From Candidatus Yanofskybacteria bacterium RIFCSPHIGHO2_01_FULL_41_21 (GTDB lineage: Bacteria; Patescibacteriota; Minisyncoccia; 2-02-FULL-40-12; GWA2-44-9), in NCBI GenBank assembly GCA_001794025.1, contig MGJA01000012.1:8455-72454 (forward strand): DNA of 64,000 bases, given 5' to 3'. Numbering within the stretch: position 1 is the stretch's first letter; every line of letters begins with the position of its first letter. The translations under genes and the position numbers were made by a program. The notes beneath the pieces are model-generated. The model had not been told where the DNA came from. It did not search any database and was given only the letters and a program-made list of their open reading frames with translations. Shown one piece after another: positions 4,911-62,104 of this stretch.

Positions 4911-4946
4911 TAGTCAAGTCGCCCTGTGGAAAACCTAACATCAATC

Positions 4947-4975: not shown

Positions 4976-4991
4976 TGATGAATCGGAGTCC

Positions 4992-7405: not shown

Positions 7406-7582
7406 TGGTTGGTAGAGTTAGAAAAACCATTTTGGTACTTCTAGCTAATATTAAAGGAAAGTTAACTCTACTATACCTAAAAGTTTGGTTTTATGCAAAT
7501 TGGGTTGTTAACAGTCCATTTCGCCCGATTACCATTTTATTGCGGCTTCATTGCGAGAAGTCGCACAGTAATTTAATCTTAA

Positions 7583-7762
7583 GTCACTTGGGGGTATACT
7601 CTTAGACCCAGTAGCGGAAGGGGTCCCAGCGAAGCTGGGGGAACCGACGGTCCGCCAGCTGGCGGATGGTTCCCCGGGTCTGGGGATAAGAGTATGCCCC
7701 AAGTGACGTTGATACAATTTGAGGAGCAACTGAGTCGGGAGTTGGGTGGAGGAAGTGGAATC
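7583..7762. repeat. Family A element copy A2 with 22-bp TIRs (GTCACTTGGGGGTATACTCTTA ... TAAGAGTATGCCCCAAGTGAC) and about 55-nt conserved tail
   Basis: Near-identical core to A1 and A4. Flanking TIRs and the GTTGGGTGGAGG tail are seen directly. Lies between rny and gpmI. Confidence 0.6.
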
Positions 7763-9828: not shown

Positions 9829-11004
9829 TCACACAATAATTCCCCCGCCAAGCATTCGTTGTCCACTGTAAAAAACAGCTGACTGACCGGAAGTAACAGC
9901 CCGTTCGGGTTTTTCAAATCTTAAAATTCCTTTTTTATTTAGAGTTGCTTTAACCGATTTAGTCCGATATCGAACTTTGATATATAAACGAGCAGGTAAA
10001 ATTGGTCTATCTAACCAATTAAAATCTTCAATTCTGGCTTCATTCCCAACAACTTGAGCGTCCGGACCAACATAAATAATATTCTTTTTTATATCTTTAG
10101 CGATGACGTAAAAAGGGCCTTTGCTAGTTTTAATATCCAGTCCATGACGTTGACCAATAGTATAATAATAGACACCATCGTGTGTACCAATCTGCGCTCC
10201 GGAAAATTCGCCTATTCGCCTATTCGCGCGAATAGGCGAATAGGGGTTCTGCTTCTTGTCAAGAAGAATGATTGGTCCTTTTTTGGGTTTGATATATGTA
10301 AGTAAAAATTCTTTCATATCTAGGGGACCAATAAAACACACCCCCTGACTGTCTTTCTTCTCGGCATTCGGTAGTTTAAATTTTTTGGCCAATTTCCTAA
10401 CTTCCGGTTTTAGTAAGTCCCCAACAGGAAATAGACAGTATTTTAACTGTTTTTGGGTCAATGTCCATAGAAAATATGATTGATCTTTATTTTTGTCTTT
10501 CGCCTGATATAATTTGTATATTTCTTTTTTTTGTATTTTTGATTTATTTAGGATTTCGTATTTAGTATTTAAAATTTCCCGCTTTATGCGGGTATAATGT
10601 CCCGTCGCAATATAATCGGCACCTTCTTTTAAGGCCCGTTTTAAAAATAGTCCAAACTTAATTTCTTTATTACACATTACATCAGGATTCGGCGTTCGAC
10701 CGGATTTGTATTCCCGAATCATATAATCGGTTACTAATTTTTTGTATTCTTTGGAAAAATCCCAAGTCAATAACGGAATCCCAATCGCTGTTGCTACCCG
10801 CATCGCATCTTCTCGATCCGCTTGCCAAAGGCAAGCAGTTTCTATTCTAGAGTTTCTAGTTTCTAGTTGTGGACTCCAGGGACGCATAAAGACCCCAACA
10901 ACATTAAATCCCTGCCTTTTCAGCAGGGCTCCTGCCACAGAACTATCTACTCCCCCTGACATCCCGACATACACTGTTTTAATTTTATGTTGACTTTTTA
11001 TCAT
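9829..11004 (-). CDS. mnmA: tRNA-specific 2-thiouridylase MnmA
   Basis: PP-loop VGMSGGVDSSV, catalytic Cys region and C-terminal barrel. Carries an in-frame palindromic insertion (see the 10207 repeat). Confidence 0.9.
   Translation of the reverse strand: MIKSQHKIKTVYVGMSGGVDSSVAGALLKRQGFNVVGVFMRPWSPQLETRNSRIETACLWQADREDAMRVATAIGIPLLTWDFSKEYKKLVTDYMIREYKSGRTPNPDVMCNKEIKFGLFLKRALKEGADYIATGHYTRIKREILNTKYEILNKSKIQKKEIYKLYQAKDKNKDQSYFLWTLTQKQLKYCLFPVGDLLKPEVRKLAKKFKLPNAEKKDSQGVCFIGPLDMKEFLLTYIKPKKGPIILLDKKQNPYSPIRANRRIGEFSGAQIGTHDGVYYYTIGQRHGLDIKTSKGPFYVIAKDIKKNIIYVGPDAQVVGNEARIEDFNWLDRPILPARLYIKVRYRTKSVKATLNKKGILRFEKPERAVTSGQSAVFYSGQRMLGGGIIV
10207..10243. repeat. intragenic perfect palindrome (CCTATTCG x2 then CGAATAGG x2) inserted in-frame in mnmA
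   Basis: Sequence ttcgCCTATTCGCCTATTCGCGCGAATAGGCGAATAGGgg. Encodes extra residues (NPYSPIRANRRIGEFSG) at a position where E. coli MnmA, from memory, has only GDE. Confidence 0.6.
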
Positions 11005-11043
11005 CTAGATGTTTAAATGTACACGAAAGGATGGACTTTTACA

Positions 11044-11817
11044 ATGTATCACAGACCACTGCCATACGTAGGAATAACTGATTTCACTCATCCGGAACAA
11101 GTTGAGCAGATGCTCGCGATTTTCAAAAAATCACTGGCAAAGCATCAACTTATGGTTGGCGTCATGATGAGCTACAAAACACTCCATGGTCTGCCAACCA
11201 AATGGACAAAAGCTTTCCCACCAAAAGAAAGTATCGCTGACATTTTCTATTCGGACGATACCTATAATTGCCTGCACTATGCAGATTACAAGGACTATTC
11301 TATTAGGCTTTGGGAAAATCTAAGTCATGTCATCTCATATGGTGGTATCGGTATTCACGCCCTGCAACTGGATATGATCTGGCCCAACCCTAATGCTATC
11401 TGGCATTCAGTCCACTCATCAAGGAAACAGTTGGAAGTCATCCTCCAACTCAATACCAACGCACTGGCGGAGGTCGGAGATAATCCAGAAGCTCTGGTTA
11501 ATAGACTGGCTGAATACGAAGGTATAGTCCATCGTGTCCTTCTCGATAAGAGTATGGGACGAGGCCTGGGAATGGACGTGAATTTCTTGCGACCATTTCT
11601 TTATGCTCTCTCAACGAAAACGCCTTGGCTATCTCTTGGGGTTGCTGGTGGACTTGGTCCAAAGACGATGCACTTATTGGGAACCTTGCCAAAAGATTTT
11701 CCCAATTTGAGTATTGATGCTCAAGGTCAACTCCGTCCAAGCGGTTCTGCTCTTGACCCAATCGATTGGGATATGGCCAGGGACTACGTTGTACAAGCAT
11801 TAACAATTTTTAGATAA
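11044..11817 (+). CDS. hypothetical protein; weak TrpF/PRAI-like TIM-barrel C-terminal motif
   Basis: ORF 11017..11817, likely starting at the second Met (MYHRPLPYVGITDF). C-terminal AGGLGPKT...IDAQGQLRPSG weakly resembles the AGGLxPxN...VDxSSGVE motif of phosphoribosylanthranilate isomerase. Confidence 0.4.
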   Translation: MYHRPLPYVGITDFTHPEQVEQMLAIFKKSLAKHQLMVGVMMSYKTLHGLPTKWTKAFPPKESIADIFYSDDTYNCLHYADYKDYSIRLWENLSHVISYGGIGIHALQLDMIWPNPNAIWHSVHSSRKQLEVILQLNTNALAEVGDNPEALVNRLAEYEGIVHRVLLDKSMGRGLGMDVNFLRPFLYALSTKTPWLSLGVAGGLGPKTMHLLGTLPKDFPNLSIDAQGQLRPSGSALDPIDWDMARDYVVQALTIFR

Positions 11818-11904: not shown

Positions 11905-12065
11905 CCAATTCGAGACAATCTAGACGTTACAGGAGTTGGTTGATATAATTAACGGTCAGCAGACCGATCAACCAACGAACTGCAATGCGAGTTTAGCTGA
12001 GGTGACGAAGGTAGCCCGAAGGGTACCAAGGAACCGGAGGCGTGTCGAGAATGGGTTACGACTCC
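11905..12065. repeat. Family B about 160-nt structured element, copy B1, immediately 3' of the 12072..13445 gene
   Basis: About 90% identical to 49908..50068. On the minus (gene-sense) strand it forms nested hairpins GUUGGUUGAU[CGGUC-UGCU-GACCG]...AUCAACCAAC and GGUACCC-UUCG-GGCUACC (UUCG tetraloop). Confidence 0.55.
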
Positions 12066-13445: not shown

Positions 13446-14736
13446 AATTTACACAATCAGCCCGAGTACTTTTAGAATTACCGCAATAATAGGCCTTGGA
13501 TGCGGCAATTTCGCCGGCTCTGGTTTTAGAATTGGCTCCACCACGAGAAAGTTTTGCCGCCGCCGCGATAAAAGCATCTTCTATATTCCAGGGATTTGCT
13601 AAGGGACGACCCGTAATTCTGGCAACCTCGTCTTTATAGCCCATCCAAGTTGAGGGAATAAACTGGGCCGGCCCCATTGCACCACCCCAACCATTACCTA
13701 TCGGACAAGACACAGCTGTCGTTTCCGGATCCATCCCTAATTCAGATGTAATTTTTAAAAATGGTTGGATATCGCGAGTAGGTTTCATAATAACTCTATA
13801 ACCCTTTGAGGGTGGATCGCCAGCCCGATTACATTTGCCGACATTTCGTCCTAACCCGGATTCAAGTTCAAGTTCAGCAATAAGAAATGCCGGGCGAATA
13901 CCGGTTGCAATTGCGGCCAGATTACCAAATTTAACAGCATCGTCAGCCGTCACGCCATTTTGCTGTAAGTAAAAAATCTCGGCTTTAATTTTTTCTATCT
14001 TAGATTGAGATTGACTTACTAATGTCTGAAATTTTGATTCTTGACCCTTTGTCTCTTTTAAAAGTTTGTCTTTTTGGGCCTTATTTTGATCAACACTTCT
14101 TTTATTAATTTCTTCCAGACCTTTCTGTTTTTCAAGATCGGTTCGTTTGTCTTCCAGTTCTTGCCCCTTTTCTTCAAGTGACACTTTGAGAGCTTGAATC
14201 CCATCTATGACCACCCTCAACTCATCTTGGGTTGTTTTAATACTATTTAAATCAGTGAAAAAATCTGAAAGCGCTTCGTGTTTGAGTAAAACAGTGGTCA
14301 ATGTCTCTTGATCGTTTTGATATAAAATTCTTAAATACTGTCCCAAGATAACCTGATTCTTGGCAATTTCTACTTCGGCTTCCTTAATTTTTTCTTGAGT
14401 GCTTTGAACTTCAGAATTTGTCTTGGCAATGGAGAGACCCAAGCTTTTTATTTCTAAGTTAAGTTGATTTATTTTGGCGTTTAATTTAGATACCTCGCTC
14501 TGAAGCGTCACTTTTGTGGGTTGAATCGCATCAATTTGTTGCTGATATTGTTCTATTTCTCGTTGAATTGCATCAATTTCAGAATATTTTTTATTTACGT
14601 CATCAGTAACAGCTGCTTGAGCCAAAAGACCGAAACACAACCCCGACATGATTATTGCCGAAAACCCGCCCAACCAGATGATTCTGGTCATTCGGGCAGG
14701 TACTAAAAACCCCCGATATTCTAATACTCGTTTCAT
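13396..14736 (-). CDS. coiled-coil protein with C-terminal lytic murein transglycosylase (SLT) domain
   Basis: ELESGLG ... GAMGPAQFIPSTW is a classic SLT catalytic motif. Long N-terminal coiled coil after a TM helix. The ORF-track start 14865 extends through Family C element C-b; the start is probably Met at 14736 (MKRVLEY) or 14691. Confidence 0.7.
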   Translation of the reverse strand: MKRVLEYRGFLVPARMTRIIWLGGFSAIIMSGLCFGLLAQAAVTDDVNKKYSEIDAIQREIEQYQQQIDAIQPTKVTLQSEVSKLNAKINQLNLEIKSLGLSIAKTNSEVQSTQEKIKEAEVEIAKNQVILGQYLRILYQNDQETLTTVLLKHEALSDFFTDLNSIKTTQDELRVVIDGIQALKVSLEEKGQELEDKRTDLEKQKGLEEINKRSVDQNKAQKDKLLKETKGQESKFQTLVSQSQSKIEKIKAEIFYLQQNGVTADDAVKFGNLAAIATGIRPAFLIAELELESGLGRNVGKCNRAGDPPSKGYRVIMKPTRDIQPFLKITSELGMDPETTAVSCPIGNGWGGAMGPAQFIPSTWMGYKDEVARITGRPLANPWNIEDAFIAAAAKLSRGGANSKTRAGEIAASKAYYCGNSKSTRADCVNYANKVQALSNRIEQNL

Positions 14737-14747
14737 CCCAGGTAGTA

Positions 14748-15008: not shown

Positions 15009-17225
15009 ATGATAAAAGTCCAAAATAATCTCCGACGTTTTGTCTGTTTTCTTTTAGTTATCTTAGCATCTTTTATTTTTGTAAATTCGGTCTCAGCTGT
15101 CACTCTTGGAATTTCCGGAAATCGTTTTACTCTTGATGGCCAAGCCAAATTTTTGGTCTTAAGTGGTTATTGGGATGGCTTGGATGCTCCTAATCCATCA
15201 GCTGACCTTAATTATCTTAAATCTAAAGGGTTTGATGGTATTAGAATATTTCCTAATTTGTGGGATTATTGTGCTGGTTGTTCTTCTGAATTTACACCTG
15301 GCAACAACCCAGTTATTAAACCCGATGGAACCATAAACCAATCTAGATTAAATCAATTAATTTCAATTATAGACACGGCAAATAGTTTGGGAATGATTGT
15401 TGATGTAACATTTGCCAGAGAAACAATAGCAGGAAATTGCCAAGCTAGCGCGGGGAATCCTGTTATTTGTATCACAGAATTTAAAAATGGAGTTATATCC
15501 GTCGTTAATGCTCTTAAAAATAAAACTAATGTTTTTTACGATTTATCTAATGAATACGATCATCCAGCAATAGATGTCCCTAATGCTGATATAATAGACC
15601 TCAAAAATAGAATCCGAAGTAACGTGGGGACAAACATAATTCTCTCTGTTTCTAGTAGCCAACCCAGCGGCTCTGTAGCAATAAATAATGCCCGTTCTAT
15701 GGGTATGAATTTAGTAAGTGTTCACTGGGCTTCTGGAACAACAGAATTAAATACCAGCCTTTATCCTGGTTCAATAATTTCATCTTTGCCGACATATGTG
15801 GGAGAGCCATATAATACCCACTCTGTGTCTGGTTACACTTCAGCGGAACTTATAAATGGAGTGGTAGAAGCAAAGAAGGCCGGTATCGCCGCTTGGTTGT
15901 TCCATTCAGATGCCACTTTCTTATCAAATGGTGAATATCCAATTAGATTTCAAAGCAATGAACAAGGATTTGTAAATAGTTTTTTATCGGCTTTACAAAG
16001 TGTAACTTGGGGTGGGGGTGGGGGCGGGGGTGGGACGGTACCACCGCCAACCAGTGGGGCTTGCATAAATCCGGCACCGGCCACATCAACTGTTCCGGAC
16101 ATGAAATCGGTTGTCCAAGGGGTAGCAGCGGCTCATCCAAACTGGTTACAAGACGTGTGTAATAGTTATGATTTTATAGACGAAGTAGTAAGACAATTAA
16201 GGGCTGGCCCAGGCGGGACGAGATGGGCTTATGAAGCGAAGCGGGCCAACTTAAGTGATCCTTGGCAGGAAGGAATTTCTTATTACTACGGTTCAGGAAA
16301 CGCACCAACTCCAGGAACAATGAGTCAATATGAGGTCTTTGCAATTGATATCGTTCATCAATATTGCGGTGTTGCCGGCGGAGGCACAAATACTGCTGAT
16401 TGGAATGTTGCAGATTGGCCTTATCGCAGTCCAAACTTAGTAGAAGTCGCTTATCTCTATCCAAGAAACGCCGGTGGCTCTCTGCCTGCTCCCCAACTTT
16501 GTACGGGGCAACCCCCTCCCCAGCCGCCACCGCCGCCCACCGGTCCGCCGACAATAACCGGTATCAGTCCTCTAAGAGCGGCTATCGGTCAAACAGTAGA
16601 AATTTATGGCACGAATTTAGTTGAAGATATTAAATTAGAATTATCGGATGGAAGATTTTACACGGTAACAGGAGTAGTTGATTTTCAAAGAACAACTCTT
16701 AGTTTCACAGTCCCCGATGCTCCCGCCGGTTCCTACAAAATATCTATCACCGGACCAAGTGGTTCAGCTACCAGTCCTCAAAATTTAGAAGTAGTTGCTG
16801 GTGGTTCCGGCTTCCCCCCTCCCCTTAACCTAGGTGTGCCTTCAGAAGGTCTACCAACTGATTTAGGACAGCTTATTGAGGCAATATTCAGTTGGTCTCT
16901 TTCTTTGATTGGTTTAGTTATCTTTGTCCGTTTCTTCTATGCCGGATTCTTATGGTTTACGGCGGCGGGTAATACAAATAGGACGGGACAAGCAAAAGAT
17001 ATAATGAAAAACGCCATTTATGGCGCTTTGATTCTTTTCTCGGCTTGGTTGATTCTTAATACTATCAACCCTGATTTGGTGGGAGGGGTCTTTGATTTAC
17101 CGGGGCTATCGGGGACGGCACCAACAAGCGGGACAGGAGGAACAGGAACAGCGGTCACTTGTAACAATGGTGTTTGCAGTAATGGTTTTACTGGGCCTTG
17201 TCAGGCCCCAACTGACTGTCAATAA
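15009..17225 (+). CDS. large secreted multidomain protein: signal peptide, GH5-like glycoside hydrolase region, poly-Gly and poly-Pro linkers, IPT/TIG-like domain, C-terminal two-helix TrbC/VirB2-pilin-like module, Cys-rich tail
   Basis: Signal peptide FVCFLLVILASFIFVNSVSA. LSNEYDHP resembles the GH5 NEP acid/base motif. ITGISP...VEIYGTNL is IPT/TIG-like. The C-terminal 100 aa (LIEAIFSWSLSLIGLVIFVRFFYAGFLWFTAAGN...AKDIMKNAIYGALILFSAWLIL) has two hydrophobic helices separated by a short loop. Confidence 0.8.
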   Translation: MIKVQNNLRRFVCFLLVILASFIFVNSVSAVTLGISGNRFTLDGQAKFLVLSGYWDGLDAPNPSADLNYLKSKGFDGIRIFPNLWDYCAGCSSEFTPGNNPVIKPDGTINQSRLNQLISIIDTANSLGMIVDVTFARETIAGNCQASAGNPVICITEFKNGVISVVNALKNKTNVFYDLSNEYDHPAIDVPNADIIDLKNRIRSNVGTNIILSVSSSQPSGSVAINNARSMGMNLVSVHWASGTTELNTSLYPGSIISSLPTYVGEPYNTHSVSGYTSAELINGVVEAKKAGIAAWLFHSDATFLSNGEYPIRFQSNEQGFVNSFLSALQSVTWGGGGGGGGTVPPPTSGACINPAPATSTVPDMKSVVQGVAAAHPNWLQDVCNSYDFIDEVVRQLRAGPGGTRWAYEAKRANLSDPWQEGISYYYGSGNAPTPGTMSQYEVFAIDIVHQYCGVAGGGTNTADWNVADWPYRSPNLVEVAYLYPRNAGGSLPAPQLCTGQPPPQPPPPPTGPPTITGISPLRAAIGQTVEIYGTNLVEDIKLELSDGRFYTVTGVVDFQRTTLSFTVPDAPAGSYKISITGPSGSATSPQNLEVVAGGSGFPPPLNLGVPSEGLPTDLGQLIEAIFSWSLSLIGLVIFVRFFYAGFLWFTAAGNTNRTGQAKDIMKNAIYGALILFSAWLILNTINPDLVGGVFDLPGLSGTAPTSGTGGTGTAVTCNNGVCSNGFTGPCQAPTDCQ
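16803..17110 (+). repeat. duplicated about 308-nt C-terminal module (copy 1) shared with 19264..19571 at about 93-95% nucleotide identity
   Basis: Direct comparison of the two nucleotide stretches; they differ only at scattered positions. Confidence 0.8.
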
Positions 17226-17256: not shown

Positions 17257-19587
17257 ATGGCAAATCGTATCCTAAAATTACTCTTAATAACGTTTCTTTT
17301 TATATTTCCCATACAATTAGTTTTTTCCAGTATTCCTCAATCTCTTCCTGCTCCGACTCATTCTATAATGTTCGGATATTATCATGTCGACTCACAATAC
17401 GGCGACTTTAAAGATGAAGTAAAGGACTACACAAACACCCAACTTATTCTTCAAGAAAGTTTTTTGAGAAGCGACCTAAATAATATCCAAGAATTTAATG
17501 ATGCTTTTGATGAGACGATAACCTTGGGACATAAAATTGTCTATGTCTTGGGGACGGACTGGAATCAAGGTCTTAATGCCGTTAAGCCCTATTGGAATAA
17601 CGTTGAGTTTATTTACTTAGCTGATGAGCCGAGTTGGGATAAAGCAACAACAGAGACCAATATTACTAATTTTAAAAATTTAGTAACCCAAGCCGGACTG
17701 GCTCAAAAACAGATAGCTATCAATTATACCCCCCAACAAATCCAAACTGGCACCAGTTATCAAGCCGTTAATCTAGACATCATCGGATTTGAAGCATATG
17801 TAGATCCGGCCAAGCAAGATGACCCCAATATCCTGACAATTTTAGAAGATCAGATAGATGCTTCCAAGCAAAAAATAGGCAATAAAAAAATGTTTATTGT
17901 TATTCAGGCCTATGACCGAAACGGTGTCTGGAAAAACATGACCTCTATTCAGGATATCCAAATTACCCCATACTTAAAATCTTACAATGATAGTAATGTC
18001 ATCGGCCTGTTTATGTTTTCTTATGCCCGATCGGGCGGAACGAGAGACAACCCGACCCTAAAAACAGCCCATCAATTAATCAGCGATACTTTGCTCGGAA
18101 AAGGACCCATTGAATCAACAATTACCGACGTCACTACAGGTTGGGGCGGTAGCTTGGCTTTTAATCCAACAAATAATACATGGATGGTTGTTAGTCACCA
18201 TCATACAATGAAAGATATATTTGCTCGTTTACTCGATAATAATGGTAACCCCTTAACCGTTATGACTACCGTTGACCAAGAACCTACATTTCTTACGGGC
18301 GGTCCAGAAGTGGCTTATTCTCCTGATATAAATAAATTCTTAATTGTCTGGTGGCAAGAAAATATTACAGACACTTCCGCGGACATTTATGGTCGTTTCA
18401 TGTCAGCTGACGGTGCTCTCTTGGGGAATGCCTTTAATCTTACCCCAAATGACTCTCGGGTTCCCTATCTCGCCGAAAGTTCAATAATGCAATACGATTC
18501 CCGCAATAAAAAATTTGTCTTTGCTTTTGAAAACAGGGCCCCAGGAAATGTGTCGGTCTATTTAAAAACGGTCGGCATAGACGGAACTGTCGGACCAACT
18601 TTGATGATAGCTGAAAATCCGCCGGATTTTTTGGGCGCACCATCATTAGCGATAAATGAAACAGGAAATGAATATTGCATAAGTTACCAAAATGCCGGCG
18701 CCAATCAACCCAATAAATTAGCCGCAGAATCAAGTAGTTTGGCTGTAAAAAGGATTGATGCCTCCACCATGCAAGTCGGACCTGAAACATTTGTTTCTAA
18801 CGATATGTACTACAACGGTGGTATCGTTTACAATTCACAAGAGGATAAATATTTTGCCACTTGGACCAACTACGCTTTAAGCACCGGACTTGCAAAAACT
18901 CTCAACTCCTGCGACGGTACAGACACTGATGATACTGAAGATATTGATATTTCTACTTCGGGAGTTATTTCTTATAACCCAAAATCAAATACTTATGCTC
19001 TGATTGCTCAAGATTGTTGTAGTGTACGCAACAACTACATTATTTTTGACACGTCTTTAAATGTCCTGGAACAAGGAACCGTGTTCACTGATTCCAAAAA
19101 ATCTGAAATAACAGGTGACCCCGAAGCTGGCGGTAATTTTGCTCCAGTAATCATGGCTAACACTAACAACGGGACATATGGTGCCACTTCCAGTATGGAT
19201 TATGCTACCACAAGATTTGCCTCCAATGTTGGTTCGACTGTTCTGCTTGGTAGAACATATAGCGGTTCCGGCTTCCCCCCTCCACTTAATCTGGGTGTAC
19301 CTTCAGAAGGTCTACCAACTGATTTAGGACAGCTTATTGAGGCAATATTCAGTTGGTCTCTTTCTTTGATTGGTTTAGTTATCTTTGTCCGTTTCTTCTA
19401 TGCCGGATTCTTATGGTTTACGGCAGCTGGTAATACATCAAATACAAGTAAAGCAAAGGATATAATGAAGAACGCCGTTTATGGCGCTTTGATTCTTTTC
19501 TCGGCTTGGTTGATTCTTAATACTATCAATCCTGACCTGGTGGGAGGGGGCTTTGATCTACCGGGATTGAGTGGTGGGATGCCTTAA
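17257..19587 (+). CDS. large secreted protein: signal peptide, glycoside-hydrolase-like region (IYLADEPSW), beta-rich repeat region, same C-terminal TrbC/VirB2-like two-helix module
   Basis: Signal peptide ILKLLLITFLFIFPIQLVFSS. C-terminal 100 aa nearly identical to the preceding gene. Confidence 0.8.
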   Translation: MANRILKLLLITFLFIFPIQLVFSSIPQSLPAPTHSIMFGYYHVDSQYGDFKDEVKDYTNTQLILQESFLRSDLNNIQEFNDAFDETITLGHKIVYVLGTDWNQGLNAVKPYWNNVEFIYLADEPSWDKATTETNITNFKNLVTQAGLAQKQIAINYTPQQIQTGTSYQAVNLDIIGFEAYVDPAKQDDPNILTILEDQIDASKQKIGNKKMFIVIQAYDRNGVWKNMTSIQDIQITPYLKSYNDSNVIGLFMFSYARSGGTRDNPTLKTAHQLISDTLLGKGPIESTITDVTTGWGGSLAFNPTNNTWMVVSHHHTMKDIFARLLDNNGNPLTVMTTVDQEPTFLTGGPEVAYSPDINKFLIVWWQENITDTSADIYGRFMSADGALLGNAFNLTPNDSRVPYLAESSIMQYDSRNKKFVFAFENRAPGNVSVYLKTVGIDGTVGPTLMIAENPPDFLGAPSLAINETGNEYCISYQNAGANQPNKLAAESSSLAVKRIDASTMQVGPETFVSNDMYYNGGIVYNSQEDKYFATWTNYALSTGLAKTLNSCDGTDTDDTEDIDISTSGVISYNPKSNTYALIAQDCCSVRNNYIIFDTSLNVLEQGTVFTDSKKSEITGDPEAGGNFAPVIMANTNNGTYGATSSMDYATTRFASNVGSTVLLGRTYSGSGFPPPLNLGVPSEGLPTDLGQLIEAIFSWSLSLIGLVIFVRFFYAGFLWFTAAGNTSNTSKAKDIMKNAVYGALILFSAWLILNTINPDLVGGGFDLPGLSGGMP
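19264..19571 (+). repeat. duplicated C-terminal module (copy 2)
   Basis: See 16803..17110. Confidence 0.8.
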
Positions 19588-20638: not shown

Positions 20639-20639
20639 A

Positions 20640-39568: not shown

Positions 39569-41083
39569 ATGCAAAGATACTCGCACAGAGAAATATTAAT
39601 TATTGTTGGTATTCTTATTATCGCATCATTCTTCCGGTTCTATCAATTAGATAAATATCCGCCGGGTCTCTATCCCGACGAAGCCATGAATGGTTCCAAC
39701 GCTCTCGTCGCCAATGCTACGGGTGATTATAAAATTTTCTATCCTGAAAATTTTGGCCGAGAGGGCTTATTTATTAATATCCAAGCCCTCTCAATTAAGT
39801 GGTTCGACGTCAATTCGTGGTCGCTACGAAGCGTTTCCGCCATTTTCGGAATTCTAACTGTCTTGGGTCTTTTTCTGTTGGCCCGAGAACTATTTAGTTG
39901 GCAGGTTGGAGCAGTATCAAGTTTTTTGCTGGCAATTTCATTTTGGCATGTAAATTTTTCTCGGATTGGATTCAGGGCAATTATGTTGCCTTTTATTTTG
40001 GTCTATTTATTTTATTTCCTCTGGAAGGGTCTGAAACATTCAAGTTGGATAGATTTCTTTTGGGCTGGAATTTTAGGTGGATTGGGATTTTATACCTATA
40101 CCTCATACCGTATCGCGCCTTTAATCGCCATCCTTATCTTCATTAACTACTGGATGTTTATAAAAAAGGACTTTCATCACGAAAATTACGAACATACCCG
40201 CAATCGTTTTTTGGGTGGTTTCTCTCTTTTTATGATTACTGTCTTTTTTGTTGCTCTGCCAATTGGTATCTACTTCTTGAAAAATCCGGAAAACTTTATG
40301 CAACGCAACACGCAATCGGTGTTTGCTCAAGAACAATCATTTCGTGAGCTTGGGGGTAGCGTCATTAAAACACTAGGCATGTTTACCTTTCAAGGTGATG
40401 GTAATGTCCGCCATAATCTAGATAGTCAACCCATGTTGGGCTGGCCAATTGCTATTTTGTTTGCTATTGGATTTTTAAAAGAGTTATATCATTGGTTAAG
40501 ACGAAAACACGGTCATTTTTCACCCGTCCATACGTTATTGTTTGTCTGGTTCTTCGTGTTTCTTATTCCGGGATTTCTTTCAACCGAAGCACCTCACGCC
40601 TTGCGCGCTGTCGGCGTAATTCCCGTCGTTATGATATTTGCTGCGAGGGGTTTTATGTGGTTATTTAACGCCGCTGAAGGATGGGAAAAAATTACTCATC
40701 CCTGGATGGCCCAAGGCCACCGTCAATTTGTTTTACCAATTTTAGTAGCATTTTCCCTCTTGGGCGCATTCAGTTTCTACGAATACAACCGGTATTTTAA
40801 TATTTGGGGACCAAGCCAAAAAACGGCCGATTCTTTCTCTGTAAATTATGTTGAGATTGCCAATGAAATAAATGCCTCACCAATAACTAAAAAGAAATAT
40901 GTTATTGTAAGCCCTTCATCAGTTGATGCTTATGGTTTACCAATTCGTGCCGAAACGGTTATGTTTTTAACTGACACGGTTTTACCTCCCACTCAGCGCG
41001 CTAAAAATTTAACCTACCTAACAGTTGACCAAGCAAAAAATTATAAATTCAGCCCAAACGCTTCGGTTTGGTATGTTAAATAA
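39569..41083 (+). CDS. GT39/ArnT-like (PMT-family) polyprenyl-phosphate-sugar-dependent glycosyltransferase
   Basis: N-terminal YPPGLYPDEAMNGSNA (DE motif in first loop) and about 11 TM helices. Confidence 0.75.
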   Translation: MQRYSHREILIIVGILIIASFFRFYQLDKYPPGLYPDEAMNGSNALVANATGDYKIFYPENFGREGLFINIQALSIKWFDVNSWSLRSVSAIFGILTVLGLFLLARELFSWQVGAVSSFLLAISFWHVNFSRIGFRAIMLPFILVYLFYFLWKGLKHSSWIDFFWAGILGGLGFYTYTSYRIAPLIAILIFINYWMFIKKDFHHENYEHTRNRFLGGFSLFMITVFFVALPIGIYFLKNPENFMQRNTQSVFAQEQSFRELGGSVIKTLGMFTFQGDGNVRHNLDSQPMLGWPIAILFAIGFLKELYHWLRRKHGHFSPVHTLLFVWFFVFLIPGFLSTEAPHALRAVGVIPVVMIFAARGFMWLFNAAEGWEKITHPWMAQGHRQFVLPILVAFSLLGAFSFYEYNRYFNIWGPSQKTADSFSVNYVEIANEINASPITKKKYVIVSPSSVDAYGLPIRAETVMFLTDTVLPPTQRAKNLTYLTVDQAKNYKFSPNASVWYVK

Positions 41084-42897
41084 TGAAAAGATATTCGCTC
41101 ATCGCTGGCGTATTGATTGTTGTCACCAGTATTATCGCCATTGCCAGTGCTTGGCATGATTCCCCTATTGTTGACGAAATTCCTCACATCGGCGCCGGTT
41201 ATTCATACGTTTCCGGTCATACATATCAATTCAATCCCGAACATCCTCCGCTGGCAAAAGATTTTGCCGGTCTAGCCCTTCTGACACTCAAGATTAATCC
41301 CAACTTTCTTTCATCTTATAATATTTCTCACCAAGGAATAGTAAACGACCAATGGAATTTTGGACGACAACTGATATACCACTCCGGCGTTGATCCGGCT
41401 ACTATTGTTCATACTGCTAAACTCCCCCTTATATTATTCTTTATTTTATCCGGTTGGCTTATCTATGCTTGGGGAAAACGAACATATAATCACCGTACCG
41501 CTCTTCTGGCGGTATTTCTGTTTGCATTTTCTCCGACTATAATCGCTCACAGTCGATTTGTGACAACCGATGTCCCCGCTCTCTTTGGAATTTTATTCGC
41601 GACCTATTTTTTTCTTCGTTACCTGCGAGAACATAACACTTTAAATTTTTGGTTGGCTTCAGTCACATTCGGCGTCGCCCTGCTCACTAAGTTTTCAACA
41701 TTTCTCCTTATTCCCTACTTCTTACTCTTGGCTCTTGTTTGGGTCTGGATTCAAAACAATGAGTATATTAAACCCACTTTTCGTTTGCTTACAAGGACCG
41801 CCCTCGTAATGGTGGTGGGATTCGTTGTAATTGTTGGACCGATTTATCAATTACAAATTTTTAATTATCCACCCACTCAGCAAAAAAATGACACTGAAAT
41901 AATTCTTAGAAATTATCCCGTCCCCACCCTTTCTAAAGCCGTCATCTGGGCGTCGGACAAACCAGTACTTCGGTCATACGCTCAATGGGGTCTGGGAATG
42001 GCAATGGTTTTTCAACGCGCCGAAGGCGGTAACAATACTTATTTCCTTGGTCAATTCTCTAATAAATCATTTAAAGCATATTTCCCAGTTGTCTATGTCC
42101 TTAAAGAACCAATTCCGTTTTTAATTCTTCTTTTAAGCGCAATCTGGCTCGGTTGGAGGGCGTGGCGTAATAATCGCGAACCATTTAAAAATAAACTGCG
42201 TGACCGCTTTCCGGTTTTTGCTATGCTTCTTTGGATTTTTATCTATGTCGCCACAAGTATCAACGCCAATCTTAATATCGGCGTTCGCCATCTTATTCCA
42301 ATCTACGGATTTATCTTTATTCTAACGGCCGGGGCAATTGAAAAAATGATTACGGATTACGGATTACGGATTAAAACCGGATCGGGTAAATTCGTAATTC
42401 GTAATTCGCAATTCGTAATTGTTGGATTATTAATTTGGTATTTGGTTGAATTTATCTCCTTCTATCCTAACTACCTAACCTACTTTAATCAATTTGCTCT
42501 TTTCCGTCCTTCTTGGGTTTCAGAAGAACAAAAAAATTGGCCGAGAGGCGGATATAATTATGTCGTTGATTCTAATCTTGATTGGGGTCAAGATCTCTGG
42601 CGTTTGGACGATTTTATAAAACAAAATAAAATTCAAAAGATATATCTTGATTATTTCGGCTGGGCTGATCCAACCTTTTATCTCGGTGACGCCTTTGTTT
42701 GGATAGTGGGCGGAAAATACACCAGCGCCGAGTCCTTTCTTAAAGACAACCCCGCCGGCGGTTGGCTTGGCGTCTCCGCCAGTTTCTACCAAGAATCAAC
42801 CGTTAATCCCGCCAGTCCATATACCTGGCTTGAAAATATAAAACCGACGGCGATGGTTGGTAACTCAATTTTCGTCTGGCATATCACTCAACCTTAG
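41083..42897 (+). CDS. GT39/GT83-like membrane glycosyltransferase, second copy
   Basis: N-terminal HDSPIVDEIPHIGAGYSY...EHPPLAK, polytopic. Start overlaps the stop of the upstream gene. Contains an in-frame tandem/inverted heptamer insertion (see 42355). Confidence 0.7.
   Translation: MKRYSLIAGVLIVVTSIIAIASAWHDSPIVDEIPHIGAGYSYVSGHTYQFNPEHPPLAKDFAGLALLTLKINPNFLSSYNISHQGIVNDQWNFGRQLIYHSGVDPATIVHTAKLPLILFFILSGWLIYAWGKRTYNHRTALLAVFLFAFSPTIIAHSRFVTTDVPALFGILFATYFFLRYLREHNTLNFWLASVTFGVALLTKFSTFLLIPYFLLLALVWVWIQNNEYIKPTFRLLTRTALVMVVGFVVIVGPIYQLQIFNYPPTQQKNDTEIILRNYPVPTLSKAVIWASDKPVLRSYAQWGLGMAMVFQRAEGGNNTYFLGQFSNKSFKAYFPVVYVLKEPIPFLILLLSAIWLGWRAWRNNREPFKNKLRDRFPVFAMLLWIFIYVATSINANLNIGVRHLIPIYGFIFILTAGAIEKMITDYGLRIKTGSGKFVIRNSQFVIVGLLIWYLVEFISFYPNYLTYFNQFALFRPSWVSEEQKNWPRGGYNYVVDSNLDWGQDLWRLDDFIKQNKIQKIYLDYFGWADPTFYLGDAFVWIVGGKYTSAESFLKDNPAGGWLGVSASFYQESTVNPASPYTWLENIKPTAMVGNSIFVWHITQP
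42355..42420. repeat. intragenic tandem-inverted heptamer repeat (GATTACG x2.5 then AATTCGT x4) in-frame within the GT39-like gene
   Basis: acggattacggattacggattaaaaccggatcgggtaaattcgtaattcgtaattcgcaattcgtaatt, encoding ITDYGLRIKTGSGKFVIRNSQFVIV. Confidence 0.45.
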
Positions 42898-44031: not shown

Positions 44032-44886
44032 CTATTTGAAGTATACTCGGTCATCAAAGCGTAAATCTATGTATTGGGGTTTAAGTGTTCCATTGGCCAT
44101 TTTCTGGGTTCTAAATATACGAAACGTATCAAGCTGGTTTTGAAGATTTGAATCAATACTAAACTTAACTAAATAACTTGCTCCAATCGGTAAGATGGGG
44201 TCATTAACCAGAACATCAAACTCTGTGTATGTATCAACGGGGATGGTAATATTTTTAACTTTAACACCTTGCTCAATCAAAATTGGGACGACAGTTTGGA
44301 TGGCTTTAAGAAATTTTGAATAGACCGTTAATGGAGACGTTGATGCCGATTGAATTCGCATATCATTAACGTTGAGTAAAAGCACGCCCGATGATTGAAT
44401 CGCTTGGCCAAACGTCACACCATCGTGGTCAAAGTATCGACAATCGGGAATTTCTTGAGATGAACCCGTAGAAACAAAACACCAGACCCCTTCTGCCCGA
44501 CGTTCGGTCACGGATATTTTTAAGGTATGCAAATATTTTTTCTTAACGGAAACATTCTCTATAAATGAGAATCGGGAAATTAATTCAGCGACTAAAGAAT
44601 CAGATTGAACAAAAAATATATCTCGTCCTATTGGAATACCGAACACTTTACGATTCAGATTCTCATCAATGACCCCCTGAACATCTCTCTGGTGCCCGTC
44701 AGTCAATCCTTCATATGAAATAGTGGTTACTCTCAACCACGGCGCATAAAAAAGAGCGTAACCAATGCCGACAAGAATAACGACAACAACAAAAATAATT
44801 AATCCTATTTTTATCTCAAAACGATGGCGTCGTTTAGACGCCAATTTATCGTTGTGTTTAAATTTTTTAATATCAACAGGACGCAT
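44032..44886 (-). CDS. ftsQ: cell division protein FtsQ/DivIB-like (TM + POTRA)
   Basis: Single TM (IGLIIFVVVVILVGIGYALF) followed by a POTRA-like region. The ORF-track N-terminus MAVMCG is encoded by the TIR of the 44885 element; start is probably MRPVDIKKF at 44886. Confidence 0.6.
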   Translation of the reverse strand: MRPVDIKKFKHNDKLASKRRHRFEIKIGLIIFVVVVILVGIGYALFYAPWLRVTTISYEGLTDGHQRDVQGVIDENLNRKVFGIPIGRDIFFVQSDSLVAELISRFSFIENVSVKKKYLHTLKISVTERRAEGVWCFVSTGSSQEIPDCRYFDHDGVTFGQAIQSSGVLLLNVNDMRIQSASTSPLTVYSKFLKAIQTVVPILIEQGVKVKNITIPVDTYTEFDVLVNDPILPIGASYLVKFSIDSNLQNQLDTFRIFRTQKMANGTLKPQYIDLRFDDRVYFK

Positions 44887-45022
44887 CCCGCACATAACAG
44901 CCATAAATTGCTTTAAGGCAGTACTACGTGTTTAGTACTCGCATGCAACTTCACTATAGCTGTGATTATTAAACTAAGTTAGTCCCGCAATTAGTACTGC
45001 AAATGGCTGTTATGTGCGGGAT
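44885..45022. mobile_element. about 138-nt element with perfect 20-bp TIRs (ATCCCGCACATAACAGCCAT / ATGGCTGTTATGTGCGGGAT) bridging the serS stop and ftsQ start
   Basis: TIRs seen directly. The right TIR contains the last 3 codons and stop of serS; the left TIR overlaps the ftsQ ATG. The interior has AT-rich -10-like hexamers on the minus strand. Confidence 0.55.
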
Positions 45023-46282: not shown

Positions 46283-46322
46283 TTTTAGGATTTAGAACTT
46301 AGGAATTAGGACTTAGAACTTA
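46283..46322. repeat. tandem heptamer array NNNNTAG (GATTTAG-AACTTAG-GAATTAG-GACTTAG-AACTTAG) between serS and lysS
   Basis: Same heptamer family as the arrays flanking the four-helix-bundle gene. Confidence 0.35.
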
Positions 46323-46353
46323 GTTTCTGACCCTATGTCCTAATGGCTAATTA

Positions 46354-47688
46354 CTAGTGGCTATCTTTGGGTCGCATGGTTGGGAAAAGAATAACTTCGC
46401 GCAGGGAATGGGAATCGGTTAAAAGGGCGACGAGGCGGTCAATGCCGATACCGAAGCCGGCTGAAGGTGGCATGCCGTATTCAAGGGCTTCAATGAAATC
46501 ATTGTCCATGCGTTGAGCTTCTTCATCACCTTTGGCGCGCATATTTTCTTGGGCCTTAAATCTTTCCTGTTGATCAATCGGGTCGTTTAATTCGGTGAAG
46601 GCCTTAACTAGCTCTGTTCCGCCGGCATAAAATTGAAAGGCCTCTACGACATCCGTACCGGGCTTTAATTTAGTAAGAGGTAACATATCTTTTGGATAGT
46701 CCATAACAAATGTTGGTTCAATCAGTGTCCCCCGAATTTTTTCTTTAAAAACAGTGTCCTCCAAACTGCCAACGTCCTGCATGAGTTCTTTGTAGGTAAT
46801 TCGGCGAAATGGTTTTTTGAATCTTTCAGGCGCAATTGTAACCATTAAGTCCTCAATAAAATCCATACCCCAATTATAGTCCTTATAAGCGACATAAAAT
46901 TCTACGGCTGAAAATTCAGGATTGTGTTCTCGATCAATGCCTTCATTTCTAAAATTAGTGGTAAATTCAAAAACCCGATCTAACCCGCCAACCAAAAGAC
47001 GCTTTAAATATAGTTCCGGCGCAATACGAAGAAACATATCTTGATCAAGAGCATTTAAATGGGTCTTGAACGGGCGGGCAGAAGCACCACCATATAACGG
47101 TTGCAGAGTCGGTGTGGTTACTTCCAAAAATTCATGTTTCATTAAATAGTGACGAATGGCTTGGATAATCTCGGCGCGCTTGATAAATTTCTCGCGAACT
47201 TCAGTACTCATCAATAAATCAAGATAGCGTTTACGGAAACGTTCTTCCACATCAATCAATCCGTGCCACTTTTCCGGCAACGGCAAAAGGGTCTTGGTCA
47301 ATATCCCTATTTCGGTGGCTTCTATAGTGCGTTCGTCTTTTTTGGTTTTGAAAAGAGTTCCCCTAACCTCAATGATGTCACCAATATCAATCAGTTCATT
47401 AAAAAATTTAAACCCATCCGCGCCAAGGGTGTCTTCTTTGGCACAACCTTGGATTTTTGAACCATCTTCATTCAAGTCAAAGAAAATAAGTCCGCCATGT
47501 CCACGTTGGGCCATAATCCTGCCAGCTAGGGTTACCTCTTTTTTTGACTCTGCAAGTTCATCAAATCTTTCCAATGCTTCAACCACGCTCATTGAGCGTT
47601 TTGTTGTCGCCGGATACGGATCTATCCCCATCTTCCGTATTTCCTTCAACTTATCCATTTTTACTTGCCGAATATCATCAAGAGCCAT
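46354..47688 (-). CDS. lysS: lysyl-tRNA synthetase (class II)
   Basis: OB-fold N-domain and class II catalytic core (motif 2 FRNEG, motif 3 GIGIDRL). Start is likely the internal Met (MALDDIRQ) rather than the ORF-track 47727. Confidence 0.9.
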   Translation of the reverse strand: MALDDIRQVKMDKLKEIRKMGIDPYPATTKRSMSVVEALERFDELAESKKEVTLAGRIMAQRGHGGLIFFDLNEDGSKIQGCAKEDTLGADGFKFFNELIDIGDIIEVRGTLFKTKKDERTIEATEIGILTKTLLPLPEKWHGLIDVEERFRKRYLDLLMSTEVREKFIKRAEIIQAIRHYLMKHEFLEVTTPTLQPLYGGASARPFKTHLNALDQDMFLRIAPELYLKRLLVGGLDRVFEFTTNFRNEGIDREHNPEFSAVEFYVAYKDYNWGMDFIEDLMVTIAPERFKKPFRRITYKELMQDVGSLEDTVFKEKIRGTLIEPTFVMDYPKDMLPLTKLKPGTDVVEAFQFYAGGTELVKAFTELNDPIDQQERFKAQENMRAKGDEEAQRMDNDFIEALEYGMPPSAGFGIGIDRLVALLTDSHSLREVILFPTMRPKDSH

Positions 47689-50532: not shown

Positions 50533-50701
50533 TCAATAAATGGGGTTATATTGCTTTTATGATACCGAACTATACTACGATTATTATCATTCTGCAAGAT
50601 GATGTGGATAAATATATCTTTCCTACTAATTACAAATATTTACTAATGTACAAATAAAGAATTCTGTATTCGTATATTTGTATTGATTAGTAATTAGTAG
50701 T

Positions 50702-62005: not shown

Positions 62006-62104
62006 GCAAGTTTACGGTTTACAGTTTCTTGTTTACAGTATAGCAAAATTAAAACAGCCAGCAAATCGCTGATCTGTAAACTGTGAACTAGAAACTAGAA
62101 ACTT

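What the first reader, a model, noticed from the sequence alone, without database searches (positions are those of the whole stretch)
10207..10243. Perfect 34-37-nt palindrome inserted in-frame inside mnmA; a second tandem-inverted heptamer insertion lies inside a GT39 gene (42355..42420)
The mnmA insertion is CCTATTCG x2 followed by its exact reverse complement. It keeps the reading frame and adds about 15 residues in a loop where E. coli MnmA (from memory) has only GDE. The GT39-like gene at 41083..42897 contains GATTACG x2.5 followed by AATTCGT x4, also in-frame (ITDYGLRIKTGSGKFVIRNSQFVIV). Both resemble Rickettsia-palindromic-element-style intragenic insertions, that is, selfish palindromes tolerated in surface loops of proteins.
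Basis: seen in the sequence. Interest (0 to 1): 0.6.

Follow-up and report, generated by a model that had tools for sequence, protein, structure and literature searches.

The report
Dispersed palindromic element inside mnmA
A 34-base perfect palindrome that adds a dozen tolerated residues to a tRNA-modifying enzyme is a stray copy of a short palindromic DNA element found mostly between genes in many groundwater-type metagenome contigs, at least some of them from ultra-small Patescibacteria, where it clusters around a small DNA-binding protein gene; I found no description of this family.

Summary
Both observations are real. Paired heptamer arrays, (GATTACG)3.7 and (AATTCGT)4.6, sit in frame inside a PMT/GT39-type gene.

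Both add residues that insertion-free orthologues lack: 19 aa in MnmA and about 17 aa in the GT39 protein.

The mnmA palindrome is not a local oddity. It equals the consensus of a dispersed family, CTATTCG-CCTATTCG-CG-CGAATAGG-CGAATAG:
- It occurs in 48 unrelated metagenome contexts, none of them mnmA.
- Most copies lie at gene junctions.
- At least four copies are in frame in other housekeeping genes, always read as (Y)SPIRANR.
- The family clusters around a conserved 86-90-aa ArsR/SmtB-type regulator gene of Patescibacteria. Four of four genomes chosen by that protein alone carry copies on both sides of it.

The GT39 element is a heptanucleotide simple-sequence repeat with an inverted partner. 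Its AATTCGT unit is about 8-fold commoner in viral contigs than control heptamers.

How the element spreads, and whether the regulator binds it, remain unknown.

The parts
10211..10244 (-). Perfect 34-nt palindrome CCTATTCGCCTATTCG|CG|CGAATAGGCGAATAGG. It is identical to the consensus of the dispersed 'ATTCG palindrome' family and is translated as (P)YSPIRANRRIG.
   Evidence: sequence, self-complementarity. (family half-site consensus G-CGAATAGG-cGAATAg). (48 other contexts).
10201..10257 (-). The whole 57-nt (19-aa) insertion in MnmA, residues 250-268 KKQNPYSPIRANRRIGEFS. It is absent from distant and from insertion-free close orthologues.
   Evidence: Alignments. AlphaFold pLDDT <50 at residues 255-265.
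9829..11004 (-). Host gene mnmA (tRNA 2-thiouridine synthase). The ORF is intact and the catalytic motifs are conserved.
   Evidence: Pfam PF03054/PF20259/PF20258. Invariant columns.
10834..10866 (-). Second insertion hot spot in mnmA (site 1, LETRNSRIETA), built from heptamer CTAGAAA/AGAAACT repeats. It holds the same 18-mer as the intergenic hairpin at 62086-62103.
   Evidence: The relative L001 has a completely different, 57-nt longer heptamer hairpin at this site.
10528..10575 (-). Third insertion in mnmA (site 2, ILNTKYEILNKSKIQK), from decayed AAATACT heptamer repeats. The model shows a long beta-hairpin here.
42348..42373 (+). Left arm of the GT39 element, (GATTACG)x3.7, translated ITDYGLRI.
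42374..42388 (+). 15-nt spacer (AAACCGGATCGGGTA) between the two arms. It encodes the turn (KTGS) between two predicted helices. The homologous spacer is present in orthologue L089.
42389..42420 (+). Right arm of the GT39 element, (AATTCGT)x4.6, translated KFVIRNSQFVIV. The single imperfect unit AATTCGC turns an in-frame TAA into CAA (Gln).
   Evidence: Arrays of the same unit occur in 61 stretches of viral contigs, against 8, 8 and 5 for other heptamers.
41083..42897 (+). Host gene, a PMT_2/GT39-type membrane glycosyltransferase.
   Evidence: Orthologue alignment.
62009..62103 (-). Intergenic heptamer tandem-inverted hairpin (GTTTACx ... CTAGAAA) that fills the gap between two genes. Same class as the GT39 element.
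   Evidence: Fold -27.1 kcal/mol, z -3.5.
46285..46356 (-). Intergenic heptamer (TTAGAAC/TTAGGAA) array with a partial inverted arm.
50623..50700 (-). Intergenic 78-nt hairpin with zero spacer and AT-rich repeat-like arms (79% complementary).
   Evidence: Fold z -6.2.

Best explanation
The mnmA palindrome is one copy of a short (~32-36 nt) palindromic element family whose named carriers are Patescibacteria. I call it here the ATTCG palindrome, consensus CTATTCG-CCTATTCG-CG-CGAATAGG-CGAATAG.

The family's usual place is the boundary between genes: just after a stop codon, or 14-60 nt before a start codon. It is densest around a conserved 86-90-aa ArsR/SmtB-type winged-helix gene. That protein is the most likely binder of the element, which would make the element its operator. 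This step is inferred.

One copy came to lie in a beta-hairpin turn of MnmA. The two-unit form is open in only one reading frame, and that frame is the same on both strands, so it is translated as YSPIRANRRIG. It sits in a low-confidence surface loop and is tolerated. It has been at this site at least since the window lineage split from a relative with 91% nucleotide identity.

Inferred: arm-to-arm identity is kept by hairpin-templated (template-switch) copying during replication, and the 7-8-nt sub-repeats grow and shrink by slippage.

The GT39 element is the same style of structure but a different instance: two heptanucleotide simple-sequence arrays (unit TAATTCG-like) in inverted order. It is shared with an orthologue 75% identical, is kept in frame by selection, and lengthens two membrane helices.

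Neither insert is likely to serve the host protein.
For: Shown:
- Family membership. A metagenome scan for the 18-nt core gave 54 loci (48 unique contexts), none with mnmA.
- The palindrome extends beyond the queried core in most of them: among 85 unique elements pooled from these and related loci the median perfect length is 28 nt and the maximum 44.
- Positions never selected for (10-16 from the centre) give cGAATAg at 68-79%. The tandem second unit is therefore a family property, and the window copy equals the consensus.
- The arms co-vary. At position 10 they agree in 75% of elements against 34% expected, and 0 of 500 shuffles reach that.
- About 40 of 48 contexts are intergenic. Of 84 elements, 40 have a gene start within 90 nt, many at 14-35 nt.
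- In-frame copies reading (Y)SPIRANR occur in an ArgRS, an MTS methyltransferase, a class-V aminotransferase and an HhH-GPD glycosylase.
- Regulator link. 5 of 91 neighbouring ORFs are homologous ArsR-type proteins. All named homologues are Patescibacteria.
- Reverse test. Four genomes picked by the protein alone all carry elements upstream of it and at or just after its stop. They hold 13 ATTCG-NN-CGAAT in 17 kb (0.76/kb), against 0.004/kb in 1.14 Mb of other bacteria.
- Insertion status and tolerance.
- Translation rather than removal: the TAA-to-CAA change in GT39.
- GT39 element homologous in L089, including its spacer.
- The AATTCGT array is about 8-fold commoner than two composition-matched control heptamers in viral contigs, and 8 of 63 arrays have an inverted partner.
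Against: - The window has only this one family copy in 64 kb, and no ArsR-type homologue was found in it. Nothing shows the element is active or bound in this genome.
- 16 other Patescibacteria loci (287 kb) have no copy at all, so the family is patchy.
- No target-site duplication, empty site or mobilising enzyme was found. Spread is inferred only from dispersal.
- On a tree built without the insert columns, the MnmA orthologues that carry the palindrome do not form a clade. Either it was gained several times at one site or lost many times, and the data do not say which.
- The copy in L084 is decaying, so the palindrome is not universally maintained.
- The genes downstream of the elements have no common theme, which is odd for a simple regulon.
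- About 10 of the 54 scan hits extend no further than 18-20 nt and may be chance.
Confidence: 0.6

Rival explanations
1. Local origin. The palindromes arose on the spot, in permissive loops, by replication slippage (tandem 7-8-mers) followed by hairpin-templated template switching. They have no relation to copies elsewhere.
For: - Heptanucleotide tandem repeats are enriched in the window. PMC4679880, summarising Mrazek et al. [quoted passage not shown]
- mnmA site 1 carries entirely different heptamer hairpins in two genomes 91% identical, which shows very fast local turnover.
- An ordinary terminator-like hairpin in L001 is a perfect 42-nt palindrome in the window.
- This remains a good account of the GT39 arrays and of the intergenic heptamer hairpins.
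Against: - The mnmA palindrome is base-for-base the consensus of a family present in 48 unrelated contexts with contig GC 32-61%. Independent convergence on 32 nt is not credible.
- L004 and L086 each carry two copies of one hairpin at two sites of mnmA. In L004 the two are in opposite orientation.
Confidence: 0.2
2. Functional intragenic site. The palindrome is kept inside mnmA because it works there. It could be an operator or roadblock for the ArsR-type protein, or an mRNA hairpin that tunes translation, folding or decay of mnmA or of the downstream ORF.
For: - The core is conserved at the same site in orthologues down to 66% aa identity while the flanking insert residues are unalignable. 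The one central change (CG to TA in L085) is symmetric.
- The GT39 hairpin is much more stable on the sense strand.
- The family sits at expression-relevant positions elsewhere.
Against: - The copy decays in L084.
- Many close orthologues lack it or carry unrelated hairpins at the site.
- No cognate regulator was seen in the window or its relatives.
- The two closest GT39 relatives have a different loop.
Confidence: 0.12
3. Phase-variation switch. The heptanucleotide arrays in the surface glycosyltransferase gene change copy number, and because 7 is not a multiple of 3 this switches the gene on and off.
For: - The unit length of 7 would shift the frame with each unit gained or lost.
- Surface glycosyltransferases are classic phase-variable genes (my own knowledge).
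- Heptameric repeats are linked to phase variation in Haemophilus (abstract of PMC12721329).
Against: - The arrays are short (3.7 and 4.6 units) and interrupted.
- Orthologue L089 has an even more degenerate version with an intact ORF.
- All orthologues retrieved are full length.
- No frame-shifted variant was seen.
Confidence: 0.04
4. Classical non-autonomous transposon (a MITE or true RPE relative), moved by a transposase that recognises terminal inverted repeats.
For: Dispersed copies, both orientations, in-frame copies in several genes. The window also carries several MITE-like 130-170-nt families.
Against: - At 32-36 nt the element is all stem, with no internal sequence.
- No target-site duplications were seen.
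- No transposase appears among the families listed for 91 neighbours (only the top 25 of 73 shown).
- Elements near the wHTH gene are directional relative to the genes.
Confidence: 0.04

Closest known systems
Rickettsia palindromic elements (RPE; Ogata et al. 2000, from my own knowledge; mentioned in PMC10969869 and PMC1779305)
   Same: A dispersed palindromic repeat that is found between genes and also inserted in frame in housekeeping genes, where it is translated and tolerated on the protein surface. It occurs in a reduced-genome bacterium.
   Different: RPEs are about 100-150 bp, imperfect, and specific to Rickettsia. This element is 32-36 nt, often a perfect palindrome with no spacer, built of 7-8-nt sub-repeats, found in Patescibacteria, and linked to a wHTH gene.
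REP/BIME elements and their RAYT (TnpA-REP) transposase (PMC8266576, PMC2817692, PMC3733652)
   Same: Size (20-40 nt), palindromic stem, location at gene ends within operons, many copies in some genomes, and a dedicated protein gene flanked by copies of the element.
   Different: No GTAG/CGTC tag. The flanked gene is an 86-90-aa ArsR-type wHTH with no catalytic domain, not a Y1 transposase. Copies are commonly perfect palindromes. In-frame coding copies exist.
Heptanucleotide simple-sequence repeats of prokaryotes (Mrazek et al. 2007 as summarised in PMC4679880; TAACTGA repeats of Beggiatoaceae and cyanobacteria; cyanobacterial STRR from my own knowledge)
   Same: Tandem 7-nt units, a few copies per array, mostly just upstream of start codons. 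One particular heptamer recurs across unrelated taxa with no known means of transfer. This fits the GT39 arrays and the intergenic heptamer hairpins of the window.
   Different: Here the arrays come as inverted pairs that form hairpins, and some are inside genes and translated. The unit is AATTCGT, not TAACTGA.
ArsR/SmtB-family operators (inverted repeats near the regulator's own promoter; my own knowledge; closest solved relatives HlyU, NolR, YgaV, CzrA)
   Same: An inverted repeat directly upstream of the regulator gene, next to a -10-like hexamer.
   Different: Copies also lie at the regulator's stop codon, at many other gene junctions and inside genes. The arms stay complementary out to 16-18 nt and carry tandem sub-repeats. 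Binding is untested.
Coding palindromes in Nematomorpha mitochondrial genes (PMC6649704), and inverted-repeat homogenisation by template switching (PMC5941160, PMC8604942)
   Same: Perfect inverted repeats embedded in protein-coding sequence. Arm identity is explained by template switching rather than by selection on the protein.
   Different: Those are up to 284 bp, organellar, and not members of a dispersed intergenic family.

Membership tests
Rickettsia palindromic elements (RPE) | Length about 100-150 bp with an extended imperfect stem | tested here: not met
   The element is 34 nt in the window and 18-44 nt across 85 copies.
Rickettsia palindromic elements (RPE) | In-frame insertion in conserved genes, absent from orthologues | tested here: met
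   MnmA has +19 aa compared with distant and close orthologues. In-frame copies occur in ArgRS, a methyltransferase, an aminotransferase and a glycosylase.
Rickettsia palindromic elements (RPE) | Sequence similarity to RPE-1 to RPE-8 consensus; Rickettsiales host | not tested
The host is Patescibacteria.
REP elements | 20-40 nt palindromic unit, repeated, mainly extragenic | tested here: met
   Median perfect length 28 nt. About 40 of 48 contexts are intergenic. Density is 0.76/kb near the wHTH gene. In the window itself there is only one copy, and it is intragenic.
REP elements | Conserved GTAG or CGTC tetranucleotide at one end | tested here: not met
   The consensus CTATTCGCCTATTCGCGCGAATAGGCGAATAG has neither.
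REP elements | Associated RAYT (Y1 transposase) gene flanked by REPs | tested here: inconclusive
   No Y1 transposase appears among the families listed for 91 neighbour ORFs, but only the top 25 of 73 families were shown. The gene that is flanked by copies is an ArsR-type wHTH.
Heptanucleotide simple-sequence repeats (LSSR) | Three or more head-to-tail copies of a 7-nt unit, more than chance | tested here: met
   GATTACG x3.7 and AATTCGT x4.6. Period-7 regions number 5 against 0.1 expected.
Phase-variable SSR locus | Copy-number polymorphism that shifts the reading frame between alleles | not testable with these tools
   No read-level data. All orthologues retrieved are in frame.
ArsR/SmtB operator | Inverted repeat overlapping the promoter region of the regulator's own gene | tested here: met
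   Elements lie 17-42 nt upstream of the wHTH start in L118, L123, L139, L227, L229 and L233, and about 60-100 nt upstream in L231, where a GC-rich hairpin splits the element.
ArsR/SmtB operator | Specific binding by the regulator | not testable with these tools
   Needs EMSA, footprinting or ChIP.
MITE | Terminal inverted repeats around an internal segment, with target-site duplications | tested here: not met
   The element is all stem with a 0-2-nt centre. The flanks are mirror-symmetric, not direct repeats.

The most novel reading that the evidence does not exclude
The ATTCG palindromes and the 86-90-aa ArsR-type winged-helix gene form a previously undescribed two-part system in Patescibacteria. 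A dedicated DNA- or RNA-hairpin-binding protein would act with a short palindromic 'punctuation' element that marks gene junctions (stop codon, hairpin, next start). The element would spread within and between genomes, occasionally into coding sequence where it becomes new peptide loops. It would be a functional analogue of REP-RAYT, but without a transposase domain.
Probability: 0.3. Interest if true: 0.75.

Novelty: new variant of a known kind. Interest (0 to 1): 0.6.

Why it matters
- Patescibacteria have tiny genomes and, to my knowledge, very few regulators, and almost nothing is known about how they organise gene expression. A conserved cis element at gene junctions, paired with a conserved small DNA-binding protein, would be a concrete and testable handle on that.
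- It is a second, independent example beside Rickettsia of short palindromes becoming translated loops in essential enzymes. MnmA alone has at least four such hot spots in this lineage, with orthologue lengths of 331-437 aa.
- These inserts inflate and scramble alignments of marker proteins from uncultured lineages, so recognising them improves annotation and phylogenies.
- The recurrence of one heptamer, AATTCGT, across viral contigs of 29-67% GC is unexplained. It echoes the open TAACTGA puzzle.

Tried and rejected
- Assembly artefact: rejected. The same palindrome is in independent JGI, NCBI and ENA assemblies.
- Known RNA family: none. Rfam at gathering threshold over the window finds only tRNA-Gln.
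- DNA-uptake-sequence idea: rejected. The octamer occurs only inside the palindrome in 64 kb.
- Cyanobacterial origin of the window (heptamer repeats resemble STRR): rejected. All named homologues are Patescibacteria.
- Phage-borne element: the 18-mer core has a single hit in the viral collection, and no ArsR-type gene lies near the viral AATTCGT arrays.
- Common regulon: genes downstream of elements and of the wHTH gene are heterogeneous (SerRS, LysE, ceramidase-like, RmuC and others).
- A fixed promoter within the element: -10-like hexamers follow it at variable distance, and only in 20 of 40 cases, which is unremarkable for AT-rich spacers.
It served only as a source of distant orthologues and of background sequence.
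- Single ancient insertion in mnmA: not supported by the NJ tree, though the tree is rough.
- Literature searches for the motif, for CPR palindromes and for heptamer hairpins found no description.
Full report
**1. What is in the sequence**

The + strand at 10211-10244 is CCTATTCGCCTATTCGCGCGAATAGGCGAATAGG. It is a perfect 34-nt palindrome with no spacer, made of two CCTATTCG units, a central CG and two CGAATAGG units.

It lies in ORF 9829..11004 on the - strand (391 aa). This ORF matches all three MnmA Pfam domains and keeps the invariant residues of the family. The palindrome encodes P254-G265, PYSPIRANRRIG.

In ORF 41083..42897 (+, PMT_2/PMT, the GT39 type) there are two heptamer arrays. (GATTACG)3.7 is at 42348-42373 and (AATTCGT)4.6 at 42389-42420, separated by 15 nt. 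They read KMITDYGLRIKTGSGKFVIRNSQFVIV.

Period-7 repeats are strongly enriched in the window: 5 regions against 0.1 expected. A 34-nt perfect palindrome is expected about 4e-6 times by chance (my arithmetic).

**2. Organism**

The named homologues of both proteins are from Patescibacteria (Paceibacteria, Yanofsky-, Taylor- and Zambryskibacteria), apart from a few records named only '[bacterium]'.

**3. Both elements are insertions**

- Compared with Klebsiella, Planococcus, Streptococcus, three other Patescibacteria and the close but insertion-free P0008, P0014 and P0030, the window MnmA has +6 aa (site 1), about +16 aa (site 2) and +19 aa (site 3, KKQNPYSPIRANRRIGEFS, 10201-10257).
- Across 30 close orthologues, lengths run from 331 to 437 aa. 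The differences sit at four or more hot spots filled with mirror-like peptides.
- The AlphaFold model (mean pLDDT 80.6) has its lowest confidence, below 50, exactly at residues 255-265.
- In the GT39 protein, several orthologues (P0129, P0132, P0134, P0135, P0137) have a loop about 17 aa shorter.
- In the GT39 model the insert lengthens two helices (H401-431 and H436-471). The turn, KTGS, is encoded by the DNA spacer.

**4. DNA of the orthologues**

- At mnmA site 3 the relative L001 (91% nucleotide identity) has the same palindrome with one mismatch.
- L084 has a decayed version.
- L085 has CCTATTCG-TA-CGAATAGG, a symmetric change at the centre.
- At site 1 the window and L001 carry completely different heptamer hairpins.
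- L086 carries one hairpin at two sites of mnmA with a compensating G/C swap.
- L004 carries one 39-nt hairpin twice in mnmA, in opposite orientation.
- The GT39 hairpin, spacer included, is shared with L089 (75% aa). The two closest relatives (90% and 85% aa) have an unrelated loop.
- In the right arm, the single imperfect unit changes what would be an in-frame TAA into CAA. The repeat is therefore translated and under selection to stay open.
- On a neighbour-joining tree built without the insert columns, the orthologues bearing the PIRAN-type insert do not form a clade. That implies repeated gain at one site or repeated loss.

**5. The palindrome belongs to a dispersed family**

A scan of the metagenome collection for the 18-nt core CCTATTCGCGCGAATAGG returned 54 loci (48 unique contexts). 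Contig GC ranged from 32 to 61%, and none encodes MnmA.

- In most of them the palindrome continues well beyond the 18 nt: the perfect length is 18-44 nt, and at least 22 nt in 40 of the 49 unique hits.
- About 10 hits stop at 18-20 nt and may be chance. One is the native LLFARIG motif of a UvrA.
- Pooling 85 unique elements, the positions that were never selected for give cGAATAg at 68-79%. The family consensus is therefore CTATTCG-CCTATTCG-CG-CGAATAGG-CGAATAG, which is the window sequence.
- Variable positions are mirrored in the other arm far more often than expected. At position 10 the figure is 75% against 34%, and 0 of 500 shuffles reach it. These copies are related, so this is not a strict probability.
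- The same loci hold sibling palindromes of identical architecture with other units (CCATTCG-CCAATTCG, AACATTCT x2, TATTCTC-TTATTCG and others).

**6. Where the family sits**

- About 40 of 48 contexts are intergenic.
- Of 84 elements, 40 have a gene start within 90 nt, and many have it only 14-35 nt from the centre.
- At least four copies are inside long ORFs in the frame (Y)SPIRANR: an ArgRS (within its N-terminal domain, where 91 residues align to 80 profile positions), an MTS methyltransferase, a class-V aminotransferase and an HhH-GPD glycosylase.
- The two-unit form has stop codons in two of its three frames, and being a palindrome it reads the same on both strands. That explains the constant peptide.

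**7. Link to a small regulator**

- Among 91 ORFs flanking the palindromes, five are mutually homologous ArsR-type winged-helix proteins of 88-93 aa. I estimate well under one would be expected by chance.
- Their homologues (204 at E<=1e-5) are, wherever named, from Patescibacteria. The closest solved relatives are HlyU, NolR, YgaV and CzrA.
- I then reversed the test. Four genomes were chosen by the protein alone: Doudna-, Uhr- and Liptonbacteria, and Paceibacterota. All carry TAATTCGCGCGAAT... elements upstream of the gene and at or just after its stop.
- In three of the four, the stop codon TAA lies in the left arm, TC-TAA-TTCG. More copies sit at neighbouring gene junctions, all on the same strand as the genes.
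- Density there is 13 copies in 17 kb (0.76/kb). The comparison values are 0.004/kb in 1.14 Mb of non-Patescibacteria loci, none in 287 kb of other Patescibacteria loci, and 0.016/kb in the window.
- No such regulator gene was found in the window or in its close relatives.

**8. The heptamer**

- A 20-mer of (AATTCGT)n occurs in 61 stretches of viral contigs with GC 29-67%. One is clearly cyanobacterial (it carries the GCGATCGC repeat).
- Two composition-matched control heptamers gave 8 and 8 hits, and AGAAACT gave 5.
- 8 of 63 arrays have an inverted (ACGAATT)n partner nearby.
- This fits the known but unexplained class of heptanucleotide repeats. PMC4679880 cites Mrazek et al. 2007 for heptanucleotide repeats being the most abundant class and possibly favoured by polymerase slippage. 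It also describes TAACTGA repeats just upstream of start codons in unrelated phyla.

**9. Interpretation**

Shown:
- the insertions;
- their translation;
- family membership of the mnmA palindrome;
- the family's junction habitat and its in-frame copies;
- its clustering around the wHTH gene.

Inferred:
- that the wHTH protein binds the element;
- that arm identity is kept by template switching. A terminator-like hairpin that is imperfect in L001 is a perfect 42-nt palindrome in the window, and the mechanism is documented elsewhere (PMC5941160, PMC8604942);
- that sub-repeats change by slippage;
- that the inserts are neutral for the host proteins.

Unknown: how copies reach new sites. I saw no duplications, empty sites or transposase.

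**10. Comparison with known systems**

- It works like RPEs (in-frame, tolerated) and like REPs (short junction palindromes, with a protein gene flanked by copies).
- It fails defining features of both: RPE length, the REP GTAG/CGTC tag, and the RAYT.
- I found no description of the motif or of such elements in Patescibacteria.
- I rate it a new variant of a known kind.

Noticed in passing
window 20510-20642, 22184-22316, 27761-27893: Three copies of a ~133-nt intergenic repeat with terminal inverted repeats ATCCCGTTAGAAATT...AATTTCTAACGGGAT (66-77% identity to the reference copy). Each fills a gap between genes. It looks MITE-like or like a small-RNA gene, and has no Rfam match.
   Followed up: partly
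window 14735-14875, 53883-54023, 58490-58640 (shorter forms 4992-5057, 55115-55201): A second ~140-nt family with arms CCAGGTAGTAGAAATCCGAC / GTCGGATTTTCACTACCTGG. A copy lies at a non-syntenic place in the relative L088 (8120-8281), which suggests mobility.
   Followed up: partly
window 7553-7716, 59768-59917, 42958-43136, fragment 5804-5852: A third repeat family of ~150-170 nt with a GC-rich structured core (GGGGTATACTCTTAGACCCAG...CTGGGGATAAGAGTATGCCCC). Two copies share an identical 60-nt stretch (7591-7650 and 59805-59864). Copies also occur in L087 and L088. No Rfam family matches.
   Followed up: partly
window 11905-12054 and 49908-50057; L001 4994-5153: A 150-nt repeat (94% identical copies). 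In the relative L001 one copy sits directly beside mnmA. In the window that place holds an extra ORF instead (11017..11817, 266 aa, no Pfam match).
   Followed up: no
window 44885-44904 and 45003-45022: A perfect 20-nt inverted repeat. One arm is the first 20 nt, start codon included, of ORF 44032..44904 (-). The other arm lies ~100 nt upstream, so the pair could sequester the start codon in the mRNA.
   Followed up: no
window 4939-4980; L001 11462-11494: A 42-nt perfect palindrome with no loop, located between genes. Its counterpart in L001 is an ordinary imperfect terminator-like hairpin with a loop, as if hairpins in this genome get 'perfected'.
   Followed up: partly
window 14667-14702; L001 8183-8203; L088 14819-14848, 1789-1806, 2203-2220; L231 about 1880-1900: A separate family of GC-rich small hairpins sharing CCTGCC(C/T)G. 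They appear as in-frame 21-36-nt indels inside genes (iPGM, SerRS and others). Two copies flank a GIY-YIG ORF in L088. One is nested in the centre of an ATTCG palindrome in L231.
   Followed up: partly
L004 10131-10173 and 10952-10990: The 39-43-nt hairpin inserted twice in the Yanofskybacteria mnmA carries TTATCCACA (the DnaA-box consensus, from my own knowledge) in both arms. This may be coincidence.
   Followed up: no
window 42900-44030: A 1.1-kb stretch without a long ORF, richer in G+C than its surroundings and holding strong hairpins. It is conserved with indels in L088. No Rfam family reaches threshold (best match trpB motif, 30 bits against a gathering score of 59).
   Followed up: partly
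window 16803-17102 and 19264-19563: A 300-nt direct repeat (92%) inside two adjacent large ORFs (15009..17225 and 17257..19587). These are probably tandem paralogues that share a C-terminal domain.
   Followed up: no
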